The notes below the pieces were generated by a model. That model did not search any database. It had not been told where the DNA came from and was given only the letters and a program-made list of their open reading frames with translations. From a virus (taxonomy: Duplodnaviria; Heunggongvirae; Uroviricota; Caudoviricetes; Crassvirales), in the IMG/VR virus record IMGVR_UViG_3300033120_000148, positions 11,764-75,763 of that record: DNA of 64,000 bases; one strand, 5' to 3'. Shown piece after piece: positions 37-60,193 of the stretch; position 1 is the stretch's first letter, and each line of letters starts with the position of its first letter. The translations under genes were made by a program, and so were the position numbers.

Positions 37-100
37 TATATATAGTAAATTACTATATAAGTACAATAAATTTAATAAAATCCTTGTTACATTGATATAT

Positions 101-121: not shown

Positions 122-141
122 GATTTTTAATATTATTAAAT

Positions 142-2089: not shown

Positions 2090-2090
2090 T

Positions 2091-6863: not shown

Positions 6864-6887
6864 TGTAGTATAATTATATATAATATA

Positions 6888-6937: not shown

Positions 6938-6957
6938 TTATTGTATATATCAATAAT

Positions 6958-6978
6958 TTTATTTATCTTTGCAACAAA
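6958..6978 (+). promoter_or_regulatory. Bacteroidota-type promoter, TATCTTTG -7 element inside TTTTATTTATCTTTGCAACAA
   Basis: Second copy of the motif seen at 101-121. Sits ~19 nt upstream of ATG 6990. Confidence 0.5.
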
Positions 6979-6989
6979 ATTTATATAGT

Positions 6990-9416: not shown

Positions 9417-9417
9417 T

Positions 9418-11205: not shown

Positions 11206-11213
11206 TAATAAAT

Positions 11214-14200: not shown

Positions 14201-17200
14201 TACTGAAAAAAATGGAGTTAAAATAACTAAATATGGAAGAAGAAAAGGAGATAAAATAATTAATGGTACTGGTCCTAGCATAAGTAAAGATGATATTCCT
14301 GAATCAGAATTAGAAACTATTGAAGGCCTACTTGATGATATGGGAGATACAGCTAAGTTAGAACTGATTGAATTAAGAGAAAGGGATGGAAAATATTCTG
14401 GAACTGTAAGACTTAATGGGCAGATAAGTGGTGCTCCTATTAATGAAAAATTTGAATTTCTATTTGATAAAAATCCAGATAAACTGAGGGGTGTAGATAA
14501 AGAAGAAACAGGAGATAGTAAAACAGCAACAATACCAACAGAAGATAATTCAAATGAATTACCCAGGACAATTAATGAAATACCTGTAGGTGATTATTCA
14601 ATAGATGAAGTTAAAGAAGAGAATAAAAACTCTGATACTAATGATAAGAAACTTACATCTAAAGATAATTCTTAGTACTATATTCCTGCTGTACCAGAGT
14701 TGGATATTGAAGCTAGTAGAAATGGTGATTATAGAAACTTTGATGAAGTTAAAAAGGAGTAGAATCCTAAACTAGATTTCTCTAAAATATATAATTATTT
14801 ATCTAGTAATAATGCTTTTTCATATGTAAATGAAGGTAATCTTAAAGAAGGTGATAGATTAGGTTTTATGATAGATCCTAACTTTAGTGATACTACTATA
14901 TTTATTATTGATAAGAAAAATAATTAGATAGTAGGTTCTCTATTTGAGTCTGATTATAAACTAAAACAGTATGAAGGCTTGGAGCAATTAGTTAACAAGA
15001 TATATCAAGAATATAAAAATAGAGAAGATAGAAATTCTAAATTTATAGCTACTCCTACTACAAGAGTGTCTTAGATGCTTGTAGGTAGAATTCCATATAT
15101 TGCAGATGAAAAGAATCTAAAGAATGTAATAGAAGAAGGTAAAGCTAATAGTACTATTTTTGGCATAGTTAAAAATGGGTCTATTACTACTAATGAAGCT
15201 ATTCCTAGTGATTAGATTATGATGCACTCTGGATTAGATGGTAAAGAAGGTAGATTATATATGTTACTATCTAATGCTGCAGGTAAATATTCACCTGTAG
15301 CTGTGAGAGTAAAGCACTTTAATGCTGATGAATTTAATCTAGATGATGCTACTGTAGCAGAAACACCAATGGGTAAGAGTATTTCTAAAGCTATAAATGA
15401 TTTAGCTAGATCCTCATCTTAGGAAGACATAACTAATGCAATGGTTAATCTAATATAGGATATTCATCTGCAAGATGAGATAATTACTCCTATGGAGAAT
15501 AACAAAGGTAGAGGTATTCTTATAAGTTCTAAGGTCAAGGGAGCAGATGGTAAATATGAAATGGTTGAAATAGATGGTAAATAGTATATTAAAGAAACTA
15601 GAATACCTATTTACTTTACTAAAGAGGTTAAACCAGTAGAAAAGAATGGACTAAGTCTAGAATTTTCATCATTTGAAGCGGCTGATATTCCTAGTAGTAG
15701 TGTAGAGATGAAGCCTGTTTAGGATATAGTAAAGGAAATAACAAATGCTTTATATTCATTGAATAAACCTTTACAAGTAAGTACTGGAAGAATTAATTAG
15801 TCTGGATATAATGCTAGAATAATTAACTCAAATATACTTTCATCAAATATTAGTTCTACTAAAATTAAAGGAAGTTTCTTTACAACAGATTACTTTGATA
15901 AATCAGGAAATCTACATGCTGCTATAACAGTAGCAAATAATAGACCTTCAGTAGGAAGAAAAATTGAAACTGTTGTTGGTGGAAAAGAGAGTGCTATTCC
16001 AGGAACTCCTGTAAATCTTAATAATATATAGTACTATGTTGATTTATCTACTAAGGAAATAAGAGATAAATTCAATAATAAAGTTACTACTAATTAGGAT
16101 TTACTATTTAATCTAGCTTGGGTAAGAAATAACTATGGTAGATTAAAGAGTACTGGTGCTATTAAAAATAATAAAGTTTTATTGCCTGATGGTAGGGCAC
16201 TAGATATTAGTAAATAGAAGATATTAAGTGGAAAAGAGTATGATAAATTTATAGATTCATTAGATGCTGTAAAAGAGAGTACAGAAGCTAATTACTAGGA
16301 TGGATTAAAGGCTGTAGAGCAAATGCAAGAAAACTAGAAATTAGTTGATAGTCAGACCTATTCTATATTGGAAGATGATGGTAATTATTATGATTATACT
16401 CCTGCTGTAGATAAAGCACAATCTAGAGATACTATTTTAGACAATGGTCTTCACACATTAATACTATAGTTTTTTAATTCATCTGAACCTATAGTTAAGC
16501 CTGATACTATGACTAAGAAAGCCTATTAGGCATTAATAGATTAGCTAAATAATATTAAAGAAGCTTTAGAAAATAGAGGTGAGAGATTTATATCTAATAA
16601 TATAACATTATTCTATAAGTATCCAAATGGAGATAGAATAGCTGCTAAGGTAGATATAATGACTATGGATAAAGATGGTAGATTTAGATTATATGCTGTT
16701 AGAAAATAGTCTTAGAATAAAGATGATATACAGAAGATAACTAAAGAATTATCTATTATGTCAAATCTATTTAGTTCTCAATATAACTTGCCTATTTATT
16801 CTATGGCTATAATACCTTTCTCTGTAAAAACAAGAGGAAATAAGGTATCTGAGACTAAATTAGAAAAGGGTATATCTATCAAATAGAATGCAGGTACTGA
16901 TACACCAGCTATAGGTAATATATAGAAAGCTAAATCTACATTACCAATATTTGAAAGTTCCTTAGAAACTCTAAAACCTATTAATGATGTTAATACTGAC
17001 AACAGATCATTAGATTCTGATACAATAGGTTATTTCTAGATTGAAGGTAAGTTACATACTGGTTATTTAATGCCTATAGGTAATATTGAAGGTAATGAGT
17101 TATATTTAACTAGAACTGCCAATATGACAAAAGGATTTAAAGACACTGTAGCTCATGCTGCAACTTATAATTATTTTGTAGTATTTCCTAATGGTGAAAC

Positions 17201-17717
17201 ATTTAATATTAAGAATAATAGCATTACAAAAGATCCTAAGGAAATGGCTAAAACAGCTATTAATCTTTTAAGTAAAAATCCTAATAGAGTAAAGGATATG
17301 TCTACTTCTGATACATTACTTTATAAAAAAGGTGAAGAGGTAACTTAGGAAGTTGAAAAACCTAAATTAACTACTGCTAATCTATTATAGAGTAGTAATA
17401 ATAAGTTAACAGCTTCTCAATAGACTGTATTAAAAGAGTAGGCTGTAGCTGATGTAGATGAAGAATTTGAAGATGATTTGGATCTAGATGATATTACTAA
17501 TATAGGTGATTCTATAATGAGTGGTCAAAAGGCTGATATTACAGATTCTAATAATAGTAAAGATGATAGTAAGATTGATGTAATTACAGATATAGATTAT
17601 GATTCACTATCAAATGATGCTAAAAAGTCACTGACTTCAAAAGGTTGGACAAAAGCAAAGTGGAATAAAGTATCTATTGCAGAGAAGTAGAAAGCTCTAA
17701 ATTGTCTAGGTTTTTAA
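11214..17717 (+). CDS. Giant virion/tail-type protein, ~2167 aa, TAG recoded (dozens of in-frame TAG)
   Basis: Track fragments 12624, 12912, 13272, 14340, 15219, 17070 and 17478 all share frame 0. Read through, they are joined only by TAG codons, ending at TAA 17715-17717. Confidence 0.6.
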
Positions 17718-17763
17718 TTTGTTTGGTCATATTTCTAAGACTGTTAGGAATAAATTTTTTATA

Positions 17764-17803
17764 GGGGAAGCAGAGTAATCTGTTTCTCCTATTTTTGTTT
17801 GTT
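17764..17803 (+). terminator. Rho-independent terminator for the plus-strand arm: 10-bp stem (GGGGAAGCAG/CTGTTTCTCC, two G.U), loop AGTAAT, then TATTTTTGTTTGTT
   Basis: Hairpin plus T-tract ~45 nt after the stop of the 2167-aa gene. Confidence 0.5.
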
Positions 17804-40442: not shown

Positions 40443-41509
40443 TCATTAATATTATTTATACCATCAATATTTATTCCAAAAGGAATAGTTCTATTTTCTT
40501 TTAGATAAGCACTCAATTCTTCACCTAAAACTAATGGACTAGTTAATACAGTACCATCATTTAATTCTATAGAATCATACAATCTTGTTGTATCAGGATA
40601 TAACCACAGCATTGGTGTAAGAGACCTCTTATTAACAACTATAAATTGATAGTCAGCTAATTTAAAGTCTTTAAAATATGGGTCATTATCCATATTTTGT
40701 CTTATAGTAGCCCAATACAATCTAGCTTGAATATCATAACACCAAGTCTTAAATGACTCATAGAATTTATATTCAGGATGACCACTAGTCTTTAAATCAA
40801 AGGGATATATAATATTCTTATCATAATCCACTATAATTAAATCAGCCATGACTCTATAAGCAATCTCTGGGGAATCATCAGTAGCCTTGAATTTAGACTT
40901 AAATTTAAGTTGATAATATCTTTGTATACCTCCTTTTTCCCAAGGATTATTTTCAGCAAATAAACCCTTTGTCAGTTTACTACTTTTTAATACTCTCACA
41001 GTATTAGCCACATCAAGCCAATCCTCTTTACTTAGTATAGTTTTACCATTAGATTTAAGTAATTCTTGATAGTAAGTTTCACCCTCTCTTAAAATACCTT
41101 CTATTCTCTTAGCATCTGCTGCATTACTCCTATAGTCATATTTATTTAGAACCTCAATTATATTAGCACTAGGAATCCTAACTAAATCATTATAAGTTTC
41201 TTTATATGTTTCAAACAACTCTTTGACTACTTTTAAAGGTTTCTCACCAATCTTAGGAAATTCTGCAATAGCATATCTACTATTGAATTCATCCATACCA
41301 CCAGTCATAATACTATCTACAGCACCACCAAAGGTTAAGCTTGGAGATTCTATTTTATCAAATAATTTAGGAATACAATCTACTCCACCTCTTTTAAAAC
41401 TTGCTAATGTTGAATAACTTAGATTAGGATCTGCTCTATATTCTGTCTCTGTTACTTGCCAAGATATATCTTTAAAATCTTTTATTTGTGCATTCTTATT
41501 TTCTTCCAT
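40433..41509 (-). CDS. PD-(D/E)xK family exonuclease (RecB/Cas4/YqaJ-like), putative
   Basis: IIVDYDKN...FDLKTSG resembles the hDhK(T) motif of the RecB/lambda-Exo nuclease fold. Confidence 0.45.
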   Translation of the reverse strand: MEENKNAQIKDFKDISWQVTETEYRADPNLSYSTLASFKRGGVDCIPKLFDKIESPSLTFGGAVDSIMTGGMDEFNSRYAIAEFPKIGEKPLKVVKELFETYKETYNDLVRIPSANIIEVLNKYDYRSNAADAKRIEGILREGETYYQELLKSNGKTILSKEDWLDVANTVRVLKSSKLTKGLFAENNPWEKGGIQRYYQLKFKSKFKATDDSPEIAYRVMADLIIVDYDKNIIYPFDLKTSGHPEYKFYESFKTWCYDIQARLYWATIRQNMDNDPYFKDFKLADYQFIVVNKRSLTPMLWLYPDTTRLYDSIELNDGTVLTSPLVLGEELSAYLKENRTIPFGINIDGINNINDWI

Positions 41510-41511
41510 AT

Positions 41512-42219
41512 TTATTCCTCATCTACTCCTTCCAATTGCATTAAATACATGTCCAATTTCATTTCTAAAGTTAATAATTGGTCATTGCATTCTTTAGAAG
41601 TCTTCTTAATAACTGACCTAATCAAGTAACTTAAAGAGGAGAAGTCTCTATTAAGTAAATACTTCTCACCTAATGCTATGTCTTTTTTATTACCTAAAGA
41701 TGGTAGTAATTCTTCTATCTCTTTAATAATATCCATATCTTTAATTATTTTTATTGCTTGATGTAATTGTGCTTTAGTATGCACTTCAAAATACATGGAT
41801 TCTACACCTCTTCTTCTTAAATCTTCTAATAAGCTGATAAATAACTTTTTTTTAAGATAGAAAGTATCATTTTCAAAGCCTTTTGCTTCAATATAAATAT
41901 CTACATCATTATATTTAAAATAAAAATCTGGAGTATATCTAATAGGTCTAAGTACTTTAGATTGTCTGTGTAATAAAAGAGGACTTCTTAATCCATTAAC
42001 TCTTTTTTTATGCTGCTCTTTAGTTTCAGAATCATAGAACTCAATAGCAACTTCCCTTCTATCAATTAGAACAAATGTAGTAGGTTCATATTCTACATTA
42101 AACCCGTTTTCAAGTAACTCTTTATAGAAAGACCTTTCAGTAATAGATTTAAATTGAATATTACCTAAACTACATTCTGTTGCATTCTTAATTTTCTTAT
42201 TTTCTCTTCCTTTTGCCAT
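41512..42219 (-). CDS. Hypothetical protein, possible PD-(D/E)xK nuclease
   Basis: Weak D..EAK pattern (DVDIYIEAKG). Confidence 0.35.
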   Translation of the reverse strand: MAKGRENKKIKNATECSLGNIQFKSITERSFYKELLENGFNVEYEPTTFVLIDRREVAIEFYDSETKEQHKKRVNGLRSPLLLHRQSKVLRPIRYTPDFYFKYNDVDIYIEAKGFENDTFYLKKKLFISLLEDLRRRGVESMYFEVHTKAQLHQAIKIIKDMDIIKEIEELLPSLGNKKDIALGEKYLLNRDFSSLSYLIRSVIKKTSKECNDQLLTLEMKLDMYLMQLEGVDEE

Positions 42220-43057
42220 ACATTACCTTTAGAATAGGACTCATTATAGCACAGGCAAATACGGCATCTGACAGAGATCTAAATGCAGGGAAATTATAAT
42301 AACTCTTTATCTTACTCTTATCAAGTTTAACAATTCTAGAAGTCACACTGTCTATAGTGTAGATTTCTTCACTATTTCTAATATGTCCCTCATAATCTTC
42401 ATCTAAACTAGTAGCTATTACTTTTAGCATAAAAGTATAGAATAAACAAGGGTCTATTTCCATATAAGAAATAAGAGAGTCATACATCTCTCTTGCTGGA
42501 GCTTCATCAACATATAGCATGTAATCAAATACTCTAAAGATTAGATGATTACTATCTTTATTAGAGTAGTCATTGATAAGTGCTTTAAGAATCTTCTTAC
42601 TATCTCTTGATAAGTAAGAACCACCTAGATTAAGACTTTTAAGAACAGTAATAGAGGAAGAGGCTTCTTCCTTCCAATTAGCCATAAAGTACCTCATACT
42701 CATTTTAACAGGTGCAGTAACTTCCTCATTTAGTTCTGTATTAAGAACTCCTTTATCTTGAGAGTCTGCTTCATAATCCTTATTACTATAGTATTTACCA
42801 TCTTTAAATATTACCATACCTTTTATAAGCATGTAAGCTAGTACTTCTTTTGAAGTTTGATCCCATCCCTTTGTAAACTCTTTAAAATAAGATCTTACAT
42901 CGGCATCTAGCTTTCCATACTCATGCCAAATTTCATTTTGGGTACTTTTCTCTGCCTCAGAAGTACTTTTCTTTAGTACATCTTTTTCAAGTACTTTCTC
43001 TGACACTTTTTTGTTTTTTACTTTTTCATTCATTTTAAATACTATTAAACCATTCAA
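42197..43057 (-). CDS. Hypothetical protein, 286 aa
   Basis: ORF only. Confidence 0.45.
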   Translation of the reverse strand: MNGLIVFKMNEKVKNKKVSEKVLEKDVLKKSTSEAEKSTQNEIWHEYGKLDADVRSYFKEFTKGWDQTSKEVLAYMLIKGMVIFKDGKYYSNKDYEADSQDKGVLNTELNEEVTAPVKMSMRYFMANWKEEASSSITVLKSLNLGGSYLSRDSKKILKALINDYSNKDSNHLIFRVFDYMLYVDEAPAREMYDSLISYMEIDPCLFYTFMLKVIATSLDEDYEGHIRNSEEIYTIDSVTSRIVKLDKSKIKSYYNFPAFRSLSDAVFACAIMSPILKVMYGKRKRK

Positions 43058-43712
43058 TGTTATAATTGAATTTGTTGTTAATTAAATTGTTTATATCTAT
43101 AAAAAGATTATATGGTAACTTCTCTTTATTTCTAGCATAGTATGCAGGGTGCTTAACCTTAATAATAGTATTTGATTTTTTATTTATATAACCTTCAAAA
43201 GTTGAAGCTTGGTCTCCAAATAGTACATAAATAAGTCCAGGGCACTTTTCTGACAGGTGTTTTAATAGACAAATGATAAATGGTCTCCATATCATAGTAT
43301 GTGAACCTACCTTATTTATTTCTACTGTTAGAGCAGAATTTAGCATTAAAATCCCTTGTTTAGCCCAACTCTCTAAAGTGTTATCAAAATTAATACAATT
43401 ATGAGGTAATTCATAATTAATAACAGCTTCTTTAATTACTTGTAATGAAGGTGATAACTTACCCTCTGGTGTACTAGATTTATTACCAAATAATATACCT
43501 GTAGCTACTCCATACTGAGTATAAGGCTCTTGCCCTATCATTACAACTTTAAGATTATTATAATCACAAATATTAAAAGCTTTAAATATATCTGACATAT
43601 TAGGACATATTACAGTGTTTTTACTTATACTATTAATACTATTTATAACTTTTAATAACTCCTGTTTATCTATGACTTTAATCCAGTCACCAAAGTAATC
43701 TTTTATATTCAT
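43035..43712 (-). CDS. ung: Uracil-DNA glycosylase (family 1-like)
   Basis: [20 protein letters not shown] matches [29 protein letters not shown] matches [16 protein letters not shown] matches HPSPLSA. Confidence 0.6.
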   Translation of the reverse strand: [225 protein letters not shown]

Positions 43713-43726
43713 AATTTATAAGATAT

Positions 43727-44488
43727 TTAGACAGCACTAAAATCTAGTACCTTCTCTAAACTATTTTTAAGAACCACTTCACAGTCTTCTGCAATAGATT
43801 TTAGCCTACTAGCTACTATACCACTTAAATTATCTGATGGCTTTAAAGTTATATCATCTGCTTTAATACCTATATCTTTAAAGACTATCTCTAAATTAGT
43901 ATGAAACTGAGATGACATATAAGGTATAAACTTATTTATTATAGCTTTATGTAATGGCAATGTAGACCCAAGCATACTCTTATTTACCTCTATAACTGAA
44001 TCTGATACAAGTATCTGATCTAATAGTCTATTATAAAGTGTTTTATAAGATATATTAATTAATATAGTACTATCTCTATAGTTAATTATTAACCCATGTG
44101 CTATTATATACTGTTCTCCATCCACACATTCTACAAGTTTTGGAAAACATTTATTACTCATAGTTGCCATTTCCATAATTATTTCATCAGGGTATAAAAT
44201 TTTAGGAGAGTTTTCCACTTTTCTATATAAAGGAAAATATGCAATTTTACCTTCTTTTAACCCTTTAGCTATAGTATGTAATACCTCAATTTTAGAAGTA
44301 TTATATCTAGACATACATATTATTGGAATATCTAAATCATGTTGGGAAAATCCTACAATCTCTAAAAATCCAAATATACTATTCTGTGCTTGTAAATCCC
44401 TAACTGAATCAGTAAAATTACCTCTATAGCCAGGTACATCTAGAATAGCATTTAAACAGGTTCTGTATCTTACACTAGTTCTAACCAT
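43727..44488 (-). CDS. Hypothetical protein, 253 aa (downstream partner of the E1-like gene)
   Basis: ORF only. Start/stop abuts the E1-like gene. Confidence 0.45.
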   Translation of the reverse strand: MVRTSVRYRTCLNAILDVPGYRGNFTDSVRDLQAQNSIFGFLEIVGFSQHDLDIPIICMSRYNTSKIEVLHTIAKGLKEGKIAYFPLYRKVENSPKILYPDEIIMEMATMSNKCFPKLVECVDGEQYIIAHGLIINYRDSTILINISYKTLYNRLLDQILVSDSVIEVNKSMLGSTLPLHKAIINKFIPYMSSQFHTNLEIVFKDIGIKADDITLKPSDNLSGIVASRLKSIAEDCEVVLKNSLEKVLDFSAV

Positions 44489-45585
44489 TATGATTCTGTT
44501 TTAAATAGCATAATTGTTGCATCATAGGATGTCTTAAATGGTAATGTTCTAAAATTATCACCAGACATAAGTGCTGCAAAATTAGCTAATAAGTTAACCA
44601 TATATGAAGCAATCATACAAGCACAAAAAGCTGTTTGCTTATAAGAACAAACAGTAGCATCAGCCTCATCATCACTAAATAAGTATTTATCTTTATACTC
44701 ATTAATAGCATAATCATTATCACCAGTAATAGCGAATATCTGAAACTCCTCTGCAGCTAATCTACCATCTATAAATAGGCACTTCTTTTTTGCTTCATCA
44801 TCTAGATCTTTTAAATGCTGACACCAAGATTTAAAGAATACCTTTCTAGCTCCCATATTATCAAAGCCACAAATCATTATATCCCCTGGTGTAGTATTAG
44901 GCTTAAATTTCTCTCTGCATTCAATATATCTACTATATCCTGAGTATGCTTCAATCTTAGAACATATAGCCGCAGACTTATAGTTTCCTACATCTTTTGA
45001 ACTATATAATTGACCTGATAGATTAACAAACTCTACTTTGTCAGGATCATATAGAATAAGGTAAGCAGGCTTAAATTTAGAAAGTAAATAAGCTACATAG
45101 CTTCCTATTCCACCTAAACCAGCTAGAATAATATTCTTGTTCTCAAAATACTTAAACCAAGATGCACCACTAAATCTTATAGTTGTTGAATCCACAGATT
45201 CTACATTTAAAGTTTTAATCTCAAGAGTAGGTTCTGTTGTACTAGGTTCTTCAGTAGATTCCTGCATGTTCATAAGTTCTTCAACTAACCTATCATCTAT
45301 ATTAATTGGATCTACAAGTATTTCTGCAACTTCATCTCTGCTCTCATTATTATCTGCTAGAACAGATTCTAAATCATCTAAATTTATAGCCTGAGTAACA
45401 GTTGGAAGAATTACATTAGAATTATCACTATTTGATTCAGGTGCATTTAATGCAGTTCCTACATTATTTATGTAAGAATTTACAAAGTTTTCTCTAGCAG
45501 ATATAGCTTGTTGATGCAGAGTATCAGCCATTGAATTTAGTTCCTCTTCAACTGAGAATACATTAGTATTGTTATCTGTATCCAT
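44488..45585 (-). CDS. E1-like (ThiF/MoeB/HesA superfamily) adenylyltransferase with acidic low-complexity N-terminal extension
   Basis: Rossmann loop ILAGLGGIGSY, E1 motif YDPDKVEFVNLSGQ (DxDxVE.SNL.RQ) and CGFDNMGARKVF (GxDN...R). Confidence 0.75.
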   Translation of the reverse strand: MDTDNNTNVFSVEEELNSMADTLHQQAISARENFVNSYINNVGTALNAPESNSDNSNVILPTVTQAINLDDLESVLADNNESRDEVAEILVDPINIDDRLVEELMNMQESTEEPSTTEPTLEIKTLNVESVDSTTIRFSGASWFKYFENKNIILAGLGGIGSYVAYLLSKFKPAYLILYDPDKVEFVNLSGQLYSSKDVGNYKSAAICSKIEAYSGYSRYIECREKFKPNTTPGDIMICGFDNMGARKVFFKSWCQHLKDLDDEAKKKCLFIDGRLAAEEFQIFAITGDNDYAINEYKDKYLFSDDEADATVCSYKQTAFCACMIASYMVNLLANFAALMSGDNFRTLPFKTSYDATIMLFKTES

Positions 45586-53802: not shown

Positions 53803-54405
53803 TTATTTTATTTCAACTTCCCATAGATTACTAACAGTTTCTTCTCCTTTATTCTCAATATAATTAATCAACTCAGAGCTTTCTTCTACTTTACCTGCAG
53901 CACCTTTTTCATCTTTAAATAGAAAATATTTAAGAACTTTCATAAATCTATAATCACCATTAAAGCTCTCTACATATCTCTTAGCTGCATCAAGTATCTC
54001 CTCATCAGGGTATCTGGTTTCATATTTCTTAAAGAGCACCTTTAATCTCTTTTCAATAAGAGCTACACCATCTGACCAATATAAATTAGTCCCATCCTTC
54101 TTACCTTTAGGAAATACCTCCTTTAGCTTTTTAGCTAATTCTTCTAGTTCCTTATCAGGCTTAGAACTTATAGTTGAATCTACCATAACTGAATTAAGAG
54201 CAGATTTACCTCTCCCTGTTACTAACCATTTATAATGAGTGTTATTAAATAATTCTCTGTTAGCAGTTATATAACCCTTATCAATTAAAGATTTCTCTGC
54301 TTCTTCTAAATCTAAATTTTCTTTAATGCTTATTAGCAAGATACTTTCTGCAATACTAAGATCTTTTTTTACACAAACTTCTTCATTCAAAAATATATTG
54401 CTCAT
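53803..54405 (-). CDS. Hypothetical protein, 200 aa
   Basis: ORF only. Confidence 0.45.
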   Translation of the reverse strand: MSNIFLNEEVCVKKDLSIAESILLISIKENLDLEEAEKSLIDKGYITANRELFNNTHYKWLVTGRGKSALNSVMVDSTISSKPDKELEELAKKLKEVFPKGKKDGTNLYWSDGVALIEKRLKVLFKKYETRYPDEEILDAAKRYVESFNGDYRFMKVLKYFLFKDEKGAAGKVEESSELINYIENKGEETVSNLWEVEIK

Positions 54406-55606
54406 TTTTTAAATCATTAATATTTTTAATCTCCTTAATTAATGCTGGATTATAATCTTTCAGCATTTTATCTTTTAGTTTCTCTTCCCTAGTGAATCTG
54501 TAATAAGGAATAATAATTACAGGACTTTCATGTCTAAGTAATCTACCTAATCTCTGAATAATAACTATTTCAGAGCTATTCAAATTAGCAAATACACCTA
54601 CCTTACAATTAACTAGATTAGCACCTTCATTAAGCATAGTACATGATGATAAATGGTTTATTTTATTACAATTAAAATCATTCATTATCTTTTCATTTCT
54701 AACACTCTTATTTTTAAAACTAATAGCATTATCACATAGCTCTTTTGCTTGTTCTATAGAACTACAAAAAGTCATGGTTCTAGATGAGTCTATAATAGAT
54801 AGTATATCTTTAATTACAGGTGTTTTTAATTTACTTAACCATTTTAATCTTTGATTACATAGTTGTAGCCATTTTCTGTGATGCCTTATTCTATTAGGAT
54901 TATCAGGATTCATACTTGATCCTTTATAAAAACTAATATCATTATCCATATTCTGATAGAACTCATTTTCAGTGCAACGAATTTCTATTTTATATAAATG
55001 CTGTTTAATAGCATCCCATCTATGTTTCCAATCTACAACAATTGTAGGATTTCTTCCATTACTATTCTTTGTTATAATCTGACTAGGGTCTAAATCATTA
55101 AGAGTTAAAGGTATTAAATATACTCTTGGATCAGGTAATACTTTATCATCTATTGCATCTTTAATACTAATCTTATATACATATAGATGCTTAAATACTC
55201 TATTTAAATCATATAATTTATACCTTGTAATAGTAGCAGACAATAAAATTGAATGCTTGAAAGACATCTCATTAATAATAGACATACATTTATCAGTAAT
55301 ATGCTGAGCTTCATCAAATATAATAGTATCAATTTCTTTATCCTTATATTTGTGTAAACTCACATATGTTGTAAATATTATATTATCTAGATACTTACTA
55401 TATCCCCATTTGTTAATTTCATCTTTCCAAGTAGTTATCAATACCAGTTTAGGAATTACTATTAAGATTATTCCTGTAGGGTTATATACATTTAATAAAT
55501 CTAAGGAATTCTTAGTCTTACCATATCCCGTAGCTAGTTCTAGTAAGATATTATTATAACTTTCCCCTAGATTTAATATTTCTTTATTAACCTCTTCTCT
55601 ATTCAT
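54383..55606 (-). CDS. Superfamily 2 DNA/RNA helicase
   Basis: Motif I LATGYGKT, motif II FDEAQH, motif III LLSATITR. Confidence 0.7.
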   Translation of the reverse strand: MNREEVNKEILNLGESYNNILLELATGYGKTKNSLDLLNVYNPTGIILIVIPKLVLITTWKDEINKWGYSKYLDNIIFTTYVSLHKYKDKEIDTIIFDEAQHITDKCMSIINEMSFKHSILLSATITRYKLYDLNRVFKHLYVYKISIKDAIDDKVLPDPRVYLIPLTLNDLDPSQIITKNSNGRNPTIVVDWKHRWDAIKQHLYKIEIRCTENEFYQNMDNDISFYKGSSMNPDNPNRIRHHRKWLQLCNQRLKWLSKLKTPVIKDILSIIDSSRTMTFCSSIEQAKELCDNAISFKNKSVRNEKIMNDFNCNKINHLSSCTMLNEGANLVNCKVGVFANLNSSEIVIIQRLGRLLRHESPVIIIPYYRFTREEKLKDKMLKDYNPALIKEIKNINDLKNEQYIFE

Positions 55607-56105
55607 TTTCTACTATTATTCTTAATTTCTTTGTATACTTTGGATCTTTAGCATAGTTTAATTCTTCAAGAAAGCTATAATAGCTCCCTCTATCATATTT
55701 ATATTGGATATATTTTATATAAGCTTCTACACTTTCTGACCAGTGTTTAAACTTATAATATCTTTTATTTTTACTATCATAAAGTCCAAATAGGTTATTA
55801 TTTTTTGTGCATACATCTGATTTAAAATTACCAGTTTCTAGTATGGCTTGAGCATAAACAACATTAGGATATTTAACCTCATAATATTCTAATGCTTCTC
55901 TTAATCCTTTTTCTGGATTTTTATTGAGAAACTCTGGATTATTTGTTTTTTCTTCTATTACAGTTTCATATGTTAATGTGTCATTAGTGTAACATGCTCT
56001 ATCACTAACTCTAGTATAATTAGTACTATCTTTTATTGTACATAATTGTATTTGCATACATAGTGCTACTAATAGAAATGTCACATTCATTATTTTTTGC
56101 TTCAT
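55599..56105 (-). CDS. Secreted GH73 N-acetylglucosaminidase (endolysin-type peptidoglycan hydrolase)
   Basis: Signal peptide MNVTFLLVALCMQIQLC. AQAILETGNFKS..NNLFGL matches the FlgJ/glucosaminidase motif AQAILESGWGKS..NNLFGIK. Confidence 0.65.
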   Translation of the reverse strand: MKQKIMNVTFLLVALCMQIQLCTIKDSTNYTRVSDRACYTNDTLTYETVIEEKTNNPEFLNKNPEKGLREALEYYEVKYPNVVYAQAILETGNFKSDVCTKNNNLFGLYDSKNKRYYKFKHWSESVEAYIKYIQYKYDRGSYYSFLEELNYAKDPKYTKKLRIIVENE

Positions 56106-56178: not shown

Positions 56179-56541
56179 TTAATCTTCATTTACAGAGAAT
56201 GTAAATGACTCTCCACCCTCATTTTGGCAAATGTTGAATAGATGCTTAATAAGTCTTTGGTTCTTATTAAGTAGTTTCCATGATGACACAGAAGGCATCC
56301 AAGAAGGAATATTATCTGGGTCTATCATTGAGTTATATGCTTCCTCAGAAATATTTATTTTCTTTAAAGCAGGTTTTGACTTTCTTGTCTTAAACTCGAT
56401 TCTTTCTCTATGCTTGTTTTCATCTGAAACAATCATAGTGTGAACATTATAAGACTCTGTTGGGTTTTTTGAGCACTCCTTCTCACTCATCATTACTCCT
56501 CCTGGAAGAGTAATAATAAGATTTACTTTAATATTATCCAT
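56179..56541 (-). CDS. Hypothetical protein, 120 aa
   Basis: ORF only. Not GroES-like. Confidence 0.4.
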   Translation of the reverse strand: MDNIKVNLIITLPGGVMMSEKECSKNPTESYNVHTMIVSDENKHRERIEFKTRKSKPALKKINISEEAYNSMIDPDNIPSWMPSVSSWKLLNKNQRLIKHLFNICQNEGGESFTFSVNED

Positions 56542-58121
56542 TAAAAAATTGATTTATTATCATGATTATCTACCATGATACACTTTGTATTCATTATAGT
56601 TAGAGCTACTGAAGCTGCATTTTCCAATGATACTCTAGTAACCTTAGCAGGGTCAATAATACCTGCTTCAATCATATCTACTATTTTATCATTTTTAGCA
56701 TCATATCCTATCCTATTACTAGAATCATAAACATCATCTACATCTGGTACATCCTTAGTAAATATATTAAATGGCTTTAATATAGCTTTTTCAACTATTT
56801 CAATACCTCTCTCTACACTAGGGTCTTCCTCTGTACTAGCTAAGTGGTGTAGTATCATAGATGCCTTAGCATATGTTGCACCACCACCTACTACAATACC
56901 TTCTTCCATTGCTGCATATATAGCACAGATAGCATCATCTACCCTATCTTTTCTCTCATTAACCTCAATGTCTGATTTACCACCTACTTTAATGACTCCA
57001 ATACTACTCTTAAATGTAGCTAATCTCCTCTCTAAAACTCTCTTTACAGAGTCATCACTTGAATTAGTAATTAGATTTTCAATCTCTTTGCATCTATTAT
57101 CTATTTCAGTAGAAGATACTCCATCATTTAGCTCCATAAGAGTATAATTATTGGAGATAGTAGCAGAATTTACTTTTCCTAGCTTACTTTCATCTATATT
57201 TGCTAGTGTATTTCCTATTGAGTCATCAATTAAAGTAGCACCAGTAATAATACTAATATCCTTTAGTGTTTCTTCTCTATTATATGACATTCCAGGAGAT
57301 TTAATAACACACACATTTATCTTACCTCTTATATAATTATATACTAGAGCCTCAAGAGCTGTCTTTGAAATATCATTTACAAAGATAATTAGACACTGAC
57401 CACCTTCTTTGCTTTTACTAATAGCTGGTATTAAAGTATTAGCATCATCTACTCTGCCATTATAAACCAGCACACTAGGATGTATTAATTGAATTTTATC
57501 ATCATCATACTGAGAAGCAAAATTTGCATCTGCATAACCTCTATCTACCTTTGCTCCCTTATAGAAATCTAGATAAGATATATTATTATAAGCTATATCA
57601 GCAGTAACATAACAGTTAATATCCTTCTCAAAGGCTTGACTGATTAAGTCACTGATTGAACTGTCATTATTAGCTGAGATATATGCTACTTGCTTAATAG
57701 ATTCTAGATTATTAGCTACTTCAATATAGCTATCTTTAATATATTCTCCAACTGCATCCACAGCAATATTAATTCCCTCTTTAACTTTTCTAGCATCATA
57801 ACCCTCATCAATACTTTTAATACCTTCATTAATCATAGTTGCTGCTAGAATAGTAGTAGTTGTAGTACCATCTCCTGCTTCTTTAGCTGTCTTTATTGCA
57901 GCACCCTTAACTAAATCTGCACCCATCTTCTCAAATGGGTCTTGCAAATCTACTTCTTGTGCTACAGTAACTCCATCTTTAGTTATATAGGGATATTCAC
58001 TACCTCTATCAATAATTACTTCTTTACCATTAGGTCCTAATGTACTACCAACTGCTTCTGCTAGTATGTTAACACCCTCTTGTAATTTGTATATTGCATC
58101 AAATTTAACTGTCTTACTCAT
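56541..58121 (-). CDS. groL: GroEL-type chaperonin (Cpn60), phage-encoded
   Basis: TLGPNGKEVIID, ITKDGVTVAQEVDL, AGDGTTTTTILA, GGGATYAKAS and C-terminal GIIDPAKVTRVSLENAASVA all match GroEL along the full 526 aa. Confidence 0.9.
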   Translation of the reverse strand: MSKTVKFDAIYKLQEGVNILAEAVGSTLGPNGKEVIIDRGSEYPYITKDGVTVAQEVDLQDPFEKMGADLVKGAAIKTAKEAGDGTTTTTILAATMINEGIKSIDEGYDARKVKEGINIAVDAVGEYIKDSYIEVANNLESIKQVAYISANNDSSISDLISQAFEKDINCYVTADIAYNNISYLDFYKGAKVDRGYADANFASQYDDDKIQLIHPSVLVYNGRVDDANTLIPAISKSKEGGQCLIIFVNDISKTALEALVYNYIRGKINVCVIKSPGMSYNREETLKDISIITGATLIDDSIGNTLANIDESKLGKVNSATISNNYTLMELNDGVSSTEIDNRCKEIENLITNSSDDSVKRVLERRLATFKSSIGVIKVGGKSDIEVNERKDRVDDAICAIYAAMEEGIVVGGGATYAKASMILHHLASTEEDPSVERGIEIVEKAILKPFNIFTKDVPDVDDVYDSSNRIGYDAKNDKIVDMIEAGIIDPAKVTRVSLENAASVALTIMNTKCIMVDNHDNKSIF

Positions 58122-58356
58122 TTACTAATTTATATAATATTTTAAATGCTCTAAATCTAATAAAGTAAATACATACAATAGAAACAAATACTATTGCTAT
58201 AATTCCTTCTACTTTATCATACCATGATAAGTCTTTTCCAATTGCTCCTGCTAAAGTAGCTCCTATAACAAATGACATAAGTAGTATACAACTAAGGTAT
58301 AATATAATTAATATTATTAATCTTATATAGTATATAGTACGTCTAAATTTATTCAT
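58114..58356 (-). CDS. Small two-TM membrane protein (holin-like?)
   Basis: 80 aa with two hydrophobic helices. Located in the lysis cluster. Confidence 0.4.
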   Translation of the reverse strand: MNKFRRTIYYIRLIILIILYLSCILLMSFVIGATLAGAIGKDLSWYDKVEGIIAIVFVSIVCIYFIRFRAFKILYKLVNE

Positions 58357-58409: not shown

Positions 58410-59240
58410 TTACTTTATATCATAAAATGGTGTTGCGCCATTTCCCATTAACATAGTAATCTTAACATTCCCTTTATTTCTTACCATATCAACTTTCTCT
58501 TTCTCAATCTCAACTGATCTTAGTCTTATATACTGCTCAGGGTTTAATCCCATCTTAGCTCTATAGGCATCATCTGCTTCTGCTCTCTTTTCTTCTGCTA
58601 GCTTTCTATATCCCTGCATCTGAGAAGCTGCTATTTGAGTCTGCTTAGCTTGTATCTGTGCTGCTGTCTTATTATATTCTTCCATTACTTCTGCATTAGG
58701 ACTTGCTTTATCTATAATAACTTTCATAATAGTAATAGGAATATGTTCTCTCTTAACTTTATCCTTTAGAACATTCTCTATTCTTTTTGAAGCATTATCA
58801 TAAATAGTTCTCTTACAAGTTAATTCCATCATAGGATACTTGCTAATCTCATTTCTTACTTCATTGCACATGTCCTTCTTAATATCATTTTCATACCACT
58901 TTACTCCAAAGTTCTTTATAAGAGTAGGTGATTCTCCCTTATTAATTCTAATAAGAACATGGGCAGTTAAATCTACAGGTGTATTATCAGAACTCATAAT
59001 ATCAGTAAATGATTCATCATATTGTACTGGTATAATTTTAACTCTGACTACATCTGTAGTCCATGCTGTCCAAGTAGTTCCTGATGTAATAGGAGTATCA
59101 TAAACTCCCCCATGCCCAAAGAACCATGGCTTAGCAATTAATACTGCTTCTTCATCTGCATCAACATCTGAAAAACTACAGCTAGATAGACCTATCATAC
59201 TGATTAGACCTATCAAAAACAATTTTAAAATTTGTTTCAT
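58410..59240 (-). CDS. Lipoprotein with SPFH/band-7 (prohibitin/stomatin-like) domain
   Basis: Lipobox LIGLISMIGLSSC. SPFH-like core RVKIIPVQYD..VDLTAHVLIRIN, then Ala/Gln-rich coiled coil TAAQIQAKQTQIAASQMQGYRKLAEEKRAEADDAYRAKMG. Confidence 0.55.
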   Translation of the reverse strand: MKQILKLFLIGLISMIGLSSCSFSDVDADEEAVLIAKPWFFGHGGVYDTPITSGTTWTAWTTDVVRVKIIPVQYDESFTDIMSSDNTPVDLTAHVLIRINKGESPTLIKNFGVKWYENDIKKDMCNEVRNEISKYPMMELTCKRTIYDNASKRIENVLKDKVKREHIPITIMKVIIDKASPNAEVMEEYNKTAAQIQAKQTQIAASQMQGYRKLAEEKRAEADDAYRAKMGLNPEQYIRLRSVEIEKEKVDMVRNKGNVKITMLMGNGATPFYDIK

Positions 59241-59261: not shown

Positions 59262-59690
59262 TTATTTTTTACTATCTTCATATAGCTGAGTAATAACATT
59301 ATTAGGTGTTATTACATATTGAATGCCACCTAAATCTGTATGTGCTTCTAGTATAGCCCCTCTAATAGGTAATACCTTACATATATCTCTAAACCAAGGG
59401 ATTAGATTACTCTTAATATCGTCATCACCATAGTCTCTTAGATCTCCCCAAATAGATATTTCCCAAAAAGCTACATCACATAGGTCATTATGATTATATT
59501 TAATACATAAGCTTCCTTCAGATCCTTTAGGTACTCTACTTTCCCTACCTTTCTTAGTATCTAGTTCCTCATAAGATACTGGTTTACCTATAGTACCTTC
59601 AAGAACTTTTCTATTATCATCTATTAAAGACTCATTAAATATAAGAGCATTGACTCTAATATGACCTGCTACATGTGTCCATTCACTCAT
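59262..59690 (-). CDS. Hypothetical protein, 142 aa
   Basis: ORF only. Confidence 0.45.
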   Translation of the reverse strand: MSEWTHVAGHIRVNALIFNESLIDDNRKVLEGTIGKPVSYEELDTKKGRESRVPKGSEGSLCIKYNHNDLCDVAFWEISIWGDLRDYGDDDIKSNLIPWFRDICKVLPIRGAILEAHTDLGGIQYVITPNNVITQLYEDSKK

Positions 59691-59692
59691 AA

Positions 59693-60193
59693 TTATTTAA
59701 ATTTATTAATAAATTCATTAACATCATAATAGGGAATTCCAAAGTTCTCTGCACACTTCTTATCTGAATCAGAGAATTGACCTTCCAAGCCACTAGCATC
59801 ACCAATCATAATGCAGTCTTCTTTAAGGAAACCAAAGTTCATACTTAGTTCTTCAAGCATTCCAGGATTAGGTTTTCTATCATAATTTTCTTTAACATTA
59901 GAGGCACAATAAATTCCATAACATTTACAATCTATATACTCTGCTATAGCTTGTTCAATATACTGAAGTTTATCTCTAAAGTGCATCTCAGGAACAAATA
60001 TTCCTATTCCACCTTGGTTGGTTACTATACCTATTTTAGAAGGTTTAATCTTCTTTAAGGCATCTAGTAATTCAAAATTAAATTTCATATCCCATATACC
60101 CTTAGGGAATGTTTCCCCACTAATAGTATTTATTATTGTACCATCTAGATCTAGGAATACTACTTTATTATTAAGTTCTTCTCTCTCTTTCAT
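59693..60193 (-). CDS. HAD-superfamily (IIIA-type) phosphatase, polynucleotide 3'-phosphatase-like
   Basis: Motif I VVFLDLDGTIIN, motif II GIVTNQGGIG, motif III RKPNPGML, motif IV IMIGDASG. Confidence 0.7.
   Translation of the reverse strand: MKEREELNNKVVFLDLDGTIINTISGETFPKGIWDMKFNFELLDALKKIKPSKIGIVTNQGGIGIFVPEMHFRDKLQYIEQAIAEYIDCKCYGIYCASNVKENYDRKPNPGMLEELSMNFGFLKEDCIMIGDASGLEGQFSDSDKKCAENFGIPYYDVNEFINKFK

What the first reader, a model, noticed from the sequence alone, without database searches (positions are those of the whole stretch)
56541..58121. Phage-encoded full-length GroEL chaperonin without a recognisable GroES
Motifs are conserved along all 526 aa (AGDGTTTTTILA, GGGATYAKAS, C-terminal DPAKVTRVSLENAASVA). 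The neighbouring 120-aa ORF is not GroES-like. Phage GroEL homologs are rare; the known example works without a co-chaperonin. It sits between the lysis cluster and small hypothetical genes.
Basis: partly seen in the sequence, partly recalled or inferred. Interest (0 to 1): 0.55.

Follow-up and report, generated by a model that had tools for sequence, protein, structure and literature searches.

The report
Divergent GroEL in a crAss-like phage
A gut crAss-like phage carries its own, very divergent but intact GroEL protein-folding machine; the "missing" GroES-type lid is probably not missing, because near-identical relatives encode one about 18 kb away, outside this window, so this is a new host group for a known kind of phage gene rather than a new kind of system.

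Summary
The ORF is real: 56541..58121 (-), 526 aa, a full-length group I chaperonin with every ATP-site residue intact and under purifying selection (omega 0.18). The window is a Steigviridae-like crAss phage. The gene is not host contamination, a chimera or a recent capture. It is at most 40% identical to any bacterial GroEL, its codon usage matches the phage, and three independent assemblies show the same context.

Phage GroELs are common: 241 GenBank phage records, at least 588 IMG/VR contigs, and Marine et al. 2017. "Without GroES" holds only inside the window. Steigviridae carry a conserved gp31-like Cpn10 (the crAss001 Gp15 family; hhalign 97% to Cpn10). A ~97%-identical contig with this GroEL encodes a complete 140-aa copy 18,076 bp away, in the TAG-recoded late block. 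Its mobile loop is uniquely remodelled in this lineage.

The adjacent 120-aa ORF is not a co-chaperonin. It is a crAss backbone gene (crAss001 gp94 family) with no recognisable fold.

What is new: none of 74 related IMG/VR crAss-like contigs has a GroEL at the corresponding locus, none was found in crAss001 or the DAC17 locus, and no paper reports one. Best reading: an acquired viral-type GroEL now works with the phage's ancestral co-chaperonin. Verdict: new member of a known kind, moderate interest.

The parts
56541..58121 (-). Phage GroEL (group I chaperonin), 526 aa. The ATPase site is intact. The inter-ring (SR1) positions, hinge glycines G374/G375, the GFGDRRK motif, the cavity acidic residues and the GGM tail are lost.
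   Evidence: identity of the gene; site audit in E. coli numbering; omega 0.18; GC3 0.156, codon-usage correlation 0.94 with the phage; same context in independent assemblies
56179..56541 (-). 120-aa gene whose ATG overlaps the GroEL stop codon (TAATG). It belongs to a conserved crAss-like backbone family (crAss001 gp94, DAC17_104) of unknown function. It is not a co-chaperonin.
58114..58356 (-). 80-aa hydrophobic (probably membrane) protein whose stop overlaps the GroEL start by 8 nt. GroEL is therefore embedded in a tightly packed co-directional gene string.
   Evidence: coordinates and sequence; no family hit; crAss001 has an 84-aa gene, gp90, between SPFH and the hydrolase
58410..59240 (-). 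SPFH/Band-7 lipoprotein, the counterpart of crAss001 gp91. It marks the upstream flank of the GroEL insertion site.
   Evidence: Band_7 1.5e-12; phrog_200; found in 36 of 74 related loci
55599..56105 (-). Peptidoglycan hydrolase (glucosaminidase), the counterpart of crAss001 gp89. It marks the downstream flank.
   Evidence: Glucosaminidase 6.5e-18
54383..55606 (-). SF2 helicase / HKD-nuclease-like protein, the counterpart of crAss001 gp88. It is the anchor gene that places the phage among Steigviridae.
   Evidence: 42-44% identity to DAC17, DAC15, Kolpuevirus, cr116_1, IAS virus and crAss001

Best explanation
The gene is a horizontally acquired, long-resident viral GroEL in one lineage of Steigviridae-like crAss phages. 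It is an active ATP-driven chaperonin, made from the standard-code (early/middle) gene block, that helps fold phage proteins. It most likely works together with the phage's own gp31-like co-chaperonin (the crAss001 Gp15 family). That co-chaperonin is an ancestral backbone gene encoded about 18 kb away in the TAG-recoded late block, outside this window. GroEL-less relatives presumably use the same co-chaperonin to recruit host GroEL, as phage T4 does with gp31; that step is inferred. In this lineage the phage would therefore supply both halves of the machine. Shown: the identity and integrity of the GroEL; purifying selection; its uniqueness among relatives; the existence and Cpn10 homology of the Gp15 family; the presence of both genes on one contig of a ~97%-identical strain; the remodelled mobile loop. 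Inferred: that the window's own genome carries the Cpn10; that the two proteins interact; what the substrates are; the ring stoichiometry.
For: GroEL integrity. It is a full-length Cpn60. All ATP/Mg-site residues are kept (T30, L31, G32, P33, K51, D52, D87-T91, S151, D398, G414-416, D495). Omega is 0.18 against a variant that differs at 25 of 526 residues (95% identical).

A resident phage gene. GC3 is 0.156 against a phage mean of 0.172 +/- 0.038 and 0.55-0.67 for Bacteroidales groEL. Codon-usage (RSCU) correlation with the phage is 0.94, against -0.08 for a Bacteroidaceae groEL. The context is identical in three assemblies (window, L001, L244).

A singular acquisition. None of 74 related IMG/VR crAss-like contigs has a GroEL within +/-8 kb of the conserved ORF120..hydrolase-helicase-DnaB module. 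The regions of crAss001 and DAC17 I inspected have none. Only one protein cluster at or above 90% identity exists, and the next-best hit is 42% identical.

Affinity to viral GroELs that have their own lid. In a neighbour-joining tree it groups (bootstrap 0.89) with Flavobacterium phage elemoC, Cellulophaga phage phi38:1 and the marine GroEL>GroES contigs. It shares rare derived residues with them (R36K, Q366E, M288T) and the same pattern of lost canonical residues.

The co-chaperonin. crAss001 Gp15 is annotated 'putative 10kDa chaperonin'. It scores Pfam Cpn10 E 0.0036 and PHROG GroES 1.6e-5. The family profile aligns to Cpn10 with hhalign probability 97%, E 1e-10, over the full length, with the roof hairpin absent. 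The family is conserved in 52 GenBank crAss-like records. Logan contig SRR8925771_4342 carries both this GroEL and a complete 140-aa Gp15 homologue (E 7.6e-52), 18,076 bp apart.

Possible co-adaptation. The family's mobile loop T-x-G-G-[LI]-[IL]-D (GG in 101 of 127 members, D in 126 of 127) reads SDTL-IKN with a 3-residue deletion only in the GroEL lineage. The variant is stable in three contigs from three sequencing runs, with about 7 synonymous against 6 non-synonymous differences (omega about 0.2).

The hydrophobic groove between apical helices H and I is kept (I234, I237, L259, V263, Y264, N265, R268).
Against: The window's own genome was not seen beyond 64 kb. The Cpn10 is inferred from a ~97%-identical strain, not observed in this sequence.

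No test of physical interaction was possible. The two genes are unlinked, on opposite strands and in different expression modules, whereas 31 of 39 viral GroEL loci with a Cpn10 have it adjacent to GroEL.

The Gp15 family presumably evolved to fit host GroEL. The acquired GroEL differs from bacterial GroEL at apical residues (S201D, Y203N, V264Y, E238S, A241K), so compatibility is not guaranteed.

The remodelled loop lacks the canonical Gly-plus-three-hydrophobics motif. It could equally reflect relaxed constraint rather than co-adaptation, and it is a single evolutionary event.

The grouping with GroEL>GroES clades joins long branches (pairwise identities 34-39%). Indels are not shared with them, so long-branch attraction is not excluded.

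The Pfam Cpn10 score of crAss001 Gp15 (17.7 bits) is below the gathering cut-off (21.1).
Confidence: 0.45

Rival explanations
1. The phage GroEL works without any lid, as a nucleotide-dependent holdase or aggregation preventer, like the phage EL gp146, OBP and AR9 chaperonins. It may cycle as single rings.
For: All four positions mutated in the engineered single-ring GroEL SR1 (recalled from memory) are lost: R452N, and E461/S463/V464 are deleted. Hinge glycines G374/G375 are both Ser. The D83-K327 pair is lost. Cavity-wall acidic residues are reduced (E252N, E255S, E363R). The GGM tail is absent. No Cpn10 lies within about 56 kb on one side and about 8 kb on the other. Phage EL chaperonin does not bind GroES and does not encapsulate substrate (PMC7185714). 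29 of the 60 viral GroEL loci I classified (those with enough flanking sequence) have no Cpn10 nearby.
Against: The same losses are typical of viral GroELs that do have a dedicated adjacent Cpn10 (the 'down' group), so they do not indicate lid independence. The protein is far closer to GroEL (1e-88 to 7.5e-103) than to phage EL gp146 (4.5e-28). The lineage does encode a Cpn10 homologue under selection. The hydrophobic H/I groove is retained.
Confidence: 0.22
2. The phage GroEL uses the host (Bacteroidales) GroES, and the phage Gp15-like protein keeps working only with host GroEL.
For: L234I and L237I are conservative changes, and L259, V263, N265 and R268 are kept. The 'down' clade, which has co-evolved Cpn10s, has L234Q instead. 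Marine et al. proposed host co-chaperonin use for GroEL-only viruses.
Against: The protein is at most 40% identical to any bacterial GroEL, and only 120 of 201 bacterially near-invariant positions are kept. Y203N, S201D and V264Y lie in the binding surface. The phage co-chaperonin's loop changed only in this lineage, which host-only pairing does not predict.
Confidence: 0.18
3. The adjacent 120-aa ORF is a novel, non-homologous co-chaperonin that was acquired together with GroEL.
For: Its start overlaps the GroEL stop (TAATG) in every context seen. Omega is 0.10. It occupies the position of the Cpn10 in GroEL>GroES phages. By eye there is a 'GGVMM' motif.
Against: Homologues exist in crAss001 (gp94, 3e-42), in DAC17 and in 74 IMG/VR contigs that have no GroEL nearby. 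138 of 2,000 shuffled sequences score as well against the Cpn10 HMM. hhalign probability is 0.2%. The confident model is an ordered alpha/beta fold with no GroES or gp31 match, and the supposed loop is structured.
Confidence: 0.03
4. The GroEL is host DNA joined to the phage by misassembly, a very recent host capture, or a decaying pseudogene.
For: The best bacterial hits are Bacteroidota, and the best PDB hit is an ancestral FCB-group GroEL.
Against: Three independent assemblies share the junctions. GC, GC3 and codon usage are phage-like. No bacterial protein among 5.8 billion clusters exceeds 42% identity. The reading frame is intact, the ATP site is intact, and omega is 0.18.
Confidence: 0.01

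Closest known systems
Viral group I chaperonins of Bacteroidota and marine phages (Marine et al. 2017 clades 'GroEL>GroES', 'GroES>GroEL' and 'GroEL'; cultured examples: Flavobacterium phages elemoC and immuto, Cellulophaga phage phi38:1, Bacteroides phage SJC03)
   Same: A full-length GroEL homologue encoded by a tailed phage of a Bacteroidota host. It has diverged strongly from cellular GroEL, has lost the Met-rich tail and several canonical residues, and groups with elemoC, phi38:1 and the GroEL>GroES contigs (bootstrap 0.89).
   Different: Those phages keep a Cpn10 next to GroEL or within about 300 bp of it. Here the only Cpn10 homologue is 18 kb away, on the other strand, and has a different evolutionary origin (crAss backbone). 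The host phage is a crAss-like podophage of gut Bacteroidales, a group in which I found no GroEL reported. Identity to all of them is only 34-41%.
Phage T4 gp31 (and RB49 CocO) working with host GroEL
   Same: The crAss Gp15 family is a phage-encoded Cpn10 homologue that lacks the roof hairpin. It is longer than GroES and sits by the head and packaging genes. It also hits PHROG 931 'head morphogenesis'.
   Different: T4 relies on host GroEL. This lineage additionally encodes its own GroEL. No sequence-level membership in the gp31 family was tested, and the functional analogy rests on established knowledge of T4.
Co-chaperonin-independent chaperonins of jumbo phages (Pseudomonas phage EL gp146, OBP gp246, Bacillus phage AR9 gp228)
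   Same: A phage-encoded Cpn60-family ATPase with altered ring-ring contacts and no adjacent GroES.
   Different: EL gp146 shares only 22% identity with GroEL (PMC7185714). The window protein matches GroEL at 1e-88 or better but EL gp146 only at 4.5e-28. It is therefore an ordinary, if very derived, group I GroEL and not a member of that divergent phage group, and its genome lineage does have a Cpn10.
Bacterial GroEL-GroES (E. coli/Salmonella GroEL; PDB 1AON)
   Same: The same three-domain architecture aligns end to end, the nucleotide site is identical, and R197/E386(D) and most groove hydrophobics are kept.
   Different: 34% identity to Salmonella GroEL and at most 40% to any bacterial GroEL. 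81 of 201 near-invariant positions are changed, including R452, E461/S463/V464, G374/G375, D83/K327 and GFGDRRK. There is a 6-residue deletion near residue 461, no GGM tail, and no groES-groEL operon.

Membership tests
Group I chaperonin (Cpn60/GroEL, Pfam PF00118) | Full-length match to the Cpn60_TCP1 model above the curated cut-off | tested here: met
   202.4 bits against a cut-off of 34.3, residues 20-518 of 526. PHROG groEL 9e-121.
Group I chaperonin (Cpn60/GroEL, Pfam PF00118) | Conserved nucleotide-binding and hydrolysis residues (T30-P33, K51, D52, GDGTTT 86-91, D398, GGG 414-416, D495) | tested here: met
   All are identical to the bacterial consensus in an alignment with 81 bacterial and 82 viral GroELs.
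Group I chaperonin (Cpn60/GroEL, Pfam PF00118) | Apical hydrophobic substrate/GroES-binding residues (Y199, S201, Y203, F204, L234, L237, L259, V263, V264) | tested here: inconclusive
   Four are identical (Y199, F204, L259, V263), two are conservative (L234I, L237I) and three are changed (S201D, Y203N, V264Y). A similar or greater loss is seen in viral GroELs that have their own Cpn10.
Group I chaperonin (Cpn60/GroEL, Pfam PF00118) | Staggered back-to-back double ring through R452, E461, S463, V464 and A109 | tested here: not met
   R452N; E461/S463/V464 fall in a deletion; A109E. This is a residue-level test only. The actual oligomeric state cannot be tested with these tools.
Group I chaperonin (Cpn60/GroEL, Pfam PF00118) | C-terminal Gly/Met-rich tail | tested here: not met
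   The protein ends ...MVDNHDNKSIF. A Met-rich tail is present in 72 of 80 bacterial GroELs but in only 1 of 7 'down' and 8 of 29 'none' viral GroELs.
Group I chaperonin (Cpn60/GroEL, Pfam PF00118) | Partner Cpn10 encoded in the same genome, classically as a groES-groEL operon | tested here: inconclusive
   There is no operon and no Cpn10 in the window. A Cpn10 homologue lies 18,076 bp away on a ~97%-identical contig that carries the same GroEL.
Cpn10/GroES family (PF00166): applied to the crAss Gp15 family and the lineage's 140-aa protein | Significant match to the Cpn10 profile | tested here: inconclusive
   Single-sequence Pfam match for crAss001 Gp15: E 0.0036, 17.7 bits, below the 21.1-bit cut-off. 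Profile-profile hhalign: 97% probability, E 1e-10, full length. PHROG GroES: 1.6e-5 for crAss001 Gp15 and 0.005 for the lineage protein. Homology is well supported, but the curated single-sequence threshold is not reached.
Cpn10/GroES family (PF00166): applied to the crAss Gp15 family and the lineage's 140-aa protein | Mobile loop with a conserved Gly followed by three hydrophobic residues | tested here: not met
   The feature is met in most of the family (T-x-G-G-[LI]-[IL]-D; GG in 101 of 127 members). In the GroEL-carrying lineage it is replaced by SDTL-IKN with a 3-residue deletion.
Jumbo-phage chaperonins (phage EL gp146 type) | Closer in sequence to EL gp146 than to cellular GroEL | tested here: not met
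   6tmt scores E 4.5e-28 against 1e-88 to 7.5e-103 for GroELs.
Crassvirales / Steigviridae (identity of the host phage) | Signature genes and synteny of crAss001-like phages | tested here: met
   The window has Pfam crAss_MUZ and crAss001_48 domains. It has 2401-aa and 1350-aa ORFs matching crAss001 Gp50 and Gp49 in size and position. The helicase is 42-44% identical to Steigviridae helicases. The SPFH-hydrolase-helicase-DnaB order is conserved.

The most novel reading that the evidence does not exclude
This crAss-like lineage has assembled a fully phage-encoded, chimeric chaperonin machine. An ancestral gp31-like lid once recruited host GroEL. It has now been re-tuned, through a remodelled mobile loop, to a horizontally acquired, highly derived and possibly single-ring viral GroEL. 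That would make capsid or virion-protein folding independent of the host chaperonin, and it would be a natural case of a co-chaperonin switching partners.
Probability: 0.3. Interest if true: 0.6.

Novelty: new member of a known kind. Interest (0 to 1): 0.4.

Why it matters
crAss-like phages are among the most abundant viruses of the human gut, and little is known about how they fold their unusual, very large virion proteins. This work shows three things. The Steigviridae backbone encodes a gp31-like co-chaperonin. One lineage has added its own GroEL. In that lineage alone, the co-chaperonin's GroEL-binding loop has changed. Together these give a concrete, testable system for how phages move from hijacking the host chaperonin to bringing their own, and for how chaperonin and co-chaperonin specificity co-evolves.

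It also gives a practical caution. 'GroEL without GroES' calls made on partial contigs can be artefacts of the contig edge, and 'orphan' calls from word-indexed searches can be wrong.

Tried and rejected
1. ORF120 as a cryptic co-chaperonin. I was led there by four things: the TAATG overlap with GroEL; the apparent orphan status; a low-confidence model with a 'disordered loop'; and by-eye motifs resembling the downstream Cpn10s of the sister clade. I rejected it for four reasons: shuffle tests gave p about 0.05-0.07; hhalign probability was below 1%; an exhaustive HMMER search found 294 representative homologues, including crAss001 gp94, in GroEL-less phages; and a pLDDT 93.7 model is an ordered alpha/beta fold.

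2. 'Two-gene insertion' of GroEL plus ORF120 relative to crAss001. Rejected for the same reason: only GroEL is new.

3. Inferring lid independence from the lost SR1, hinge, cavity and tail residues. Rejected because the same losses occur in viral GroELs that have an adjacent Cpn10.

4. Single-protein scans of IMG/VR, JGI metagenomes and GTDB genomes for close GroEL relatives found none.

5. Walking from the window's right edge using exact-protein look-ups failed: there was no record, or only contigs of 4 kb or less. It worked once the proteins were registered through the listing of cluster members.

6. The sigma-70 promoter and terminator scan around the gene was uninformative: fewer promoter-like sites than in shuffles and no terminators. 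Bacteroidales promoter types are not covered by that tool.

7. Literature searches for crAss-like or Crassvirales together with GroEL or chaperonin returned nothing relevant.
Full report
**1. The observation**

- It matches Pfam Cpn60_TCP1 over residues 20-518 (E 1.5e-59) and PHROG 5725 'chaperonin groEL' (9e-121).
- It aligns end to end with solved GroELs. The best is an ancestral Fibrobacteres-Chlorobi-Bacteroidetes GroEL (7.5e-103), and E. coli GroEL scores 1.3e-88. The co-chaperonin-independent phage EL gp146 (6tmt) scores only 4.5e-28.
- So this is an ordinary group I GroEL homologue, not a member of the very divergent jumbo-phage chaperonin group.

**2. What the window is**

The window is a crAss-like phage of the Steigviridae type.
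- It has a short 80% nucleotide match to the crAss001 Sak4-like gene.
- It has Pfam crAss_MUZ and crAss001_48 domains.
- It has 2401-aa and 1350-aa ORFs that mirror crAss001 Gp50 and Gp49.
- Its helicase is 42-44% identical to those of DAC17, DAC15, Kolpuevirus, cr116_1, IAS virus and crAss001.
- The plus-strand block 1-17,800 opens into long ORFs only when TAG is read through. This is the late-gene stop-codon recoding known for some crAss-like phages. GroEL lies in the standard-code minus-strand block.

**3. Not an artefact and not a recent capture**

- GC and skew are uniform across the gene.
- GroEL GC3 is 0.156, against a phage mean of 0.172 +/- 0.038 and 0.55-0.67 for Bacteroidales groEL genes. 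Its codon usage correlates 0.94 with the rest of the phage, against -0.08 for a Bacteroidaceae groEL.
- The gene order SPFH, 80 aa, GroEL, 120 aa, hydrolase, helicase recurs in two further independent assemblies. These are Logan SRR32380196 (10.6 kb) and SRR8925771 (43.9 kb, about 97% nucleotide identity).
- Among 5.8 billion protein clusters there is one close cluster (95% identity, 38 members). Everything else is 42% identical or less.
- In an alignment with 81 bacterial and 82 viral GroELs, the window protein is at most 40% identical to any bacterial sequence. Bacterial GroELs from different phyla are at least 58% identical to each other (mean 69%).
- Against the variant that differs at 25 of 526 residues, dN/dS is 0.18.
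- The gene is therefore old in the virus, fully ameliorated and under purifying selection.

**4. Residue audit in E. coli numbering**

*Kept*
- The whole nucleotide site: T30, L31, G32, P33, K51, D52, D87-T91, S151, D398, G414-416, D495.
- R197 and E386(D), and most of the hydrophobic groove between helices H and I: I234, I237, L259, V263, with N265 and R268.

*Lost or changed*
- S201D, Y203N and V264Y in the apical binding surface.
- Hinge residues G374S and G375S.
- The D83K and K327N pair.
- The GFGDRRK motif, which now reads GMSYNRE.
- Cavity residues E252N, E255S, E363R and K364V.
- Inter-ring residues R452N and A109E, plus a deletion that removes E461, S463 and V464. From memory, these are the four positions mutated in the single-ring SR1 GroEL.
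- The C-terminal GGM tail.

Only 120 of 201 positions that are at least 95% conserved in bacteria are retained, against a viral median of 174.5.

I was tempted to read this as evidence of lid independence. A control argues against that. Viral GroELs that have an adjacent downstream Cpn10 show the same losses. Viral GroELs with no Cpn10 nearby mostly keep S201, Y203, G374 and G375.

**5. How rare are phage GroELs, and do they come with GroES?**

They are not rare.
- 241 GenBank phage records have a match.
- Marine et al. 2017 described abundant viral GroELs falling into GroES>GroEL, GroEL>GroES and GroEL-only clades, with 40% of GroEL contigs carrying a co-chaperonin (PMC5649160).
- With a Cpn10 HMM built here from 123 sequences, 79 of 80 bacterial loci and 39 of 80 viral loci had a Cpn10 within the fetched flanks. 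24 were immediately upstream of GroEL and 7 immediately downstream.
- Bacteroides phage SJC03, Flavobacterium phages immuto and elemoC, and Cellulophaga phage phi38:1 all encode their own Cpn10.

**6. Origin of the gene**

- In neighbour-joining trees the window GroEL groups with the marine GroEL>GroES contigs, elemoC and phi38:1 (bootstrap 85-89%).
- It shares a few rare derived residues with them: R36K, Q366E, M288T, R118E and L400I.
- These are all long branches (34-39% pairwise identity) and indels are not shared, so long-branch attraction is not excluded.
- I regard a virus-to-virus origin within Bacteroidota phages as likelier than direct capture from a host, but it is unproven.

**7. 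The adjacent 120-aa ORF**

- Its ATG overlaps the GroEL stop codon (TAATG). It is under strong purifying selection (omega 0.10).
- The word-indexed search made it look like an orphan. I therefore tested whether it was a cryptic co-chaperonin. It is not.
- Shuffle-calibrated HMM scores were not significant.
- The exhaustive HMMER search found 294 representative homologues.
- A family HMM hits crAss001 gp94 (3e-42) and DAC17_104 (4e-37). Neither phage shows a GroEL in the regions I inspected.
- The family profile has 0.2% hhalign probability against Cpn10.
- It is a conserved crAss backbone gene of unknown function.

**8. Distribution among relatives**

- 74 IMG/VR crAss-sized contigs carry the ORF120 family within the conserved module ORF120..[SPFH]..hydrolase-helicase-o200-DnaB. 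None has a GroEL within +/-8 kb.
- In the closest of them (L170 and L171) the genes upstream of ORF120 are unrelated to the window's.
- The strain variant L244 lacks the PNK-phosphatase and 142-aa genes.
- GroEL therefore sits in a hypervariable accessory region next to the lysis and replication module. It is a singular acquisition in this lineage.
- Searches of the paper library for crAss-like or Crassvirales together with GroEL or chaperonin found no report of one.

**9. The missing GroES**

I scanned the complete crAss001 record as a proxy for the unseen part of this genome.
- Gp15 turned up, annotated 'putative 10kDa chaperonin'. It lies between the HU-like gene and the terminase.
- Its single-sequence scores are weak: Pfam Cpn10 E 0.0036, 17.7 bits, below the 21.1-bit cut-off, and PHROG GroES 1.6e-5.
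- It is nevertheless the top Cpn10-HMM hit in the whole crAss001 genome.
- The family profile aligns to Cpn10 over its full length with 97% hhalign probability (E 1e-10). The roof hairpin is absent, as in T4 gp31, and there is an insertion of about 23 residues.
- The family is conserved across Steigviridae genera in 52 GenBank records, and there are 1,711 clusters in the large protein database.
- By synteny the gene should lie outside the window.

I then walked along the 43.9-kb Logan contig that carries this GroEL.
- There is a 125-aa gene, a 94-aa HU-like gene (with in-frame TAGs) and then a complete 140-aa Gp15 homologue (E 7.6e-52). HNH and portal genes (Pfam HNH_3, P22_portal) follow, in the positions of crAss001's endonuclease Gp18, terminase Gp19 and portal Gp20.
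- The Gp15 homologue lies 18,076 bp from GroEL on the opposite strand.
- So 'GroEL without GroES' is true of the 64-kb window but almost certainly false of the genome.

**10. A hint of co-adaptation**

- In 127 Gp15-family members the mobile loop reads T-x-G-G-[LI]-[IL]-D...KQQG. GG is present in 101 of 127 and D in 126 of 127.
- In the GroEL-carrying lineage the segment is DDDSDTL-IKNTS-GS. The Gly-Gly and the near-invariant Asp are lost and three residues are deleted, while both flanks stay conserved.
- The variant is identical in three contigs from three sequencing runs. The gene shows about 7 synonymous against 6 non-synonymous differences (omega about 0.2).
- This fits re-tuning of the lid to a new, divergent GroEL. 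It also fits relaxed constraint, and it is a single event.

**11. Verdict**

The finding is real and its description is accurate, but its framing is outdated and, for the genome as a whole, wrong.
- The most likely mechanism (confidence about 0.45): an acquired viral GroEL, an active ATPase, operates with the phage's own ancestral gp31-like co-chaperonin to fold phage proteins.
- The rivals are lid-free, EL-like action (0.22) and use of host GroES (0.18). A cryptic ORF120 lid (0.03) and an artefact (0.01) are effectively excluded.
- It is a new member of a known kind: a viral GroEL, apparently the first in Crassvirales. Its partner is unlinked and has a different evolutionary origin.

Noticed in passing
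window 1-17800 (+ strand); also L304 148-432 and 1130-1369, and L305 14874-17246: The late/structural block is readable only if TAG is translated. Seven ORFs of 186-2183 aa appear with TAG read-through and only two of at least 150 aa (186 and 167 aa) under the standard code; TGA or TAA read-through does not help. In the ~97%-identical strain the HU-like gene has 2 in-frame TAGs, another small gene has 5, and the portal gene has 21 in-frame stops. No tRNA gene lies in the window, so the suppressor tRNA must be elsewhere. GroEL and the Cpn10-like gene themselves contain no TAG.
   Followed up: partly
[not shown]
   Followed up: partly
L305 10637-11059 (Logan SRR8925771_4342); also L306 3188-3610 and L307 763-1185: The gp31-like co-chaperonin of the GroEL-carrying lineage has a uniquely remodelled mobile loop. 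The family motif T-x-G-G-[LI]-[IL]-D becomes SDTL-IKN with a 3-residue deletion, while the flanks are conserved. In L307 one Glu codon is replaced by an in-frame stop codon; I did not check which one (a TAG would presumably be read through under the recoding).
   Followed up: partly
crAss001 NC_049977.1 7411-7821 (L249) and 52 GenBank crAss-like records: The 'putative 10kDa chaperonin' annotation of crAss001 Gp15 rests on a sub-threshold Pfam hit. It is strongly confirmed here by profile-profile comparison (97%, full length, roof hairpin absent). Steigviridae therefore generally encode a gp31-like lid, presumably to use host GroEL.
   Followed up: yes
L127 (IMGVR_UViG_3300031628_000011) 4851-7623: A distantly related phage contig shares helicase, Sak4-like and primase-like homologues with the window at 23-36% identity. 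It has an independently acquired, bacterial-like GroEL (68% identity to bacterial GroELs, GGM-type tail) directly downstream of its helicase, with no Cpn10 within 6 kb.
   Followed up: partly
window 59262-60193 (-) compared with L244 6921-8132: Strain-level mosaicism: the ~97%-identical strain lacks the 142-aa gene and the PNK 3'-phosphatase gene that lie between the GNAT acetyltransferase and the SPFH gene in the window. The region upstream of GroEL is a flexible accessory island.
   Followed up: partly
window about 41500-44500 (-): Among ORFs of 286 aa or less in the window, one hits DNA_pol_A (5.7e-25) and another hits LAGLIDADG homing-endonuclease domains (2.6e-12). The run of 225-286-aa ORFs at about 41.5-44.5 kb is my guess at their location, because the tool output does not say which ORFs hit. 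If so, the family A DNA polymerase gene may be split by a homing endonuclease or intron-like insertion.
   Followed up: no
method:: The word-indexed homology search reported the 120-aa protein as an orphan (one cluster). The exhaustive HMMER search then found 294 representative homologues at 29-54% identity. 'Orphan' calls from the indexed search are unreliable for short, fast-evolving phage proteins.
   Followed up: yes
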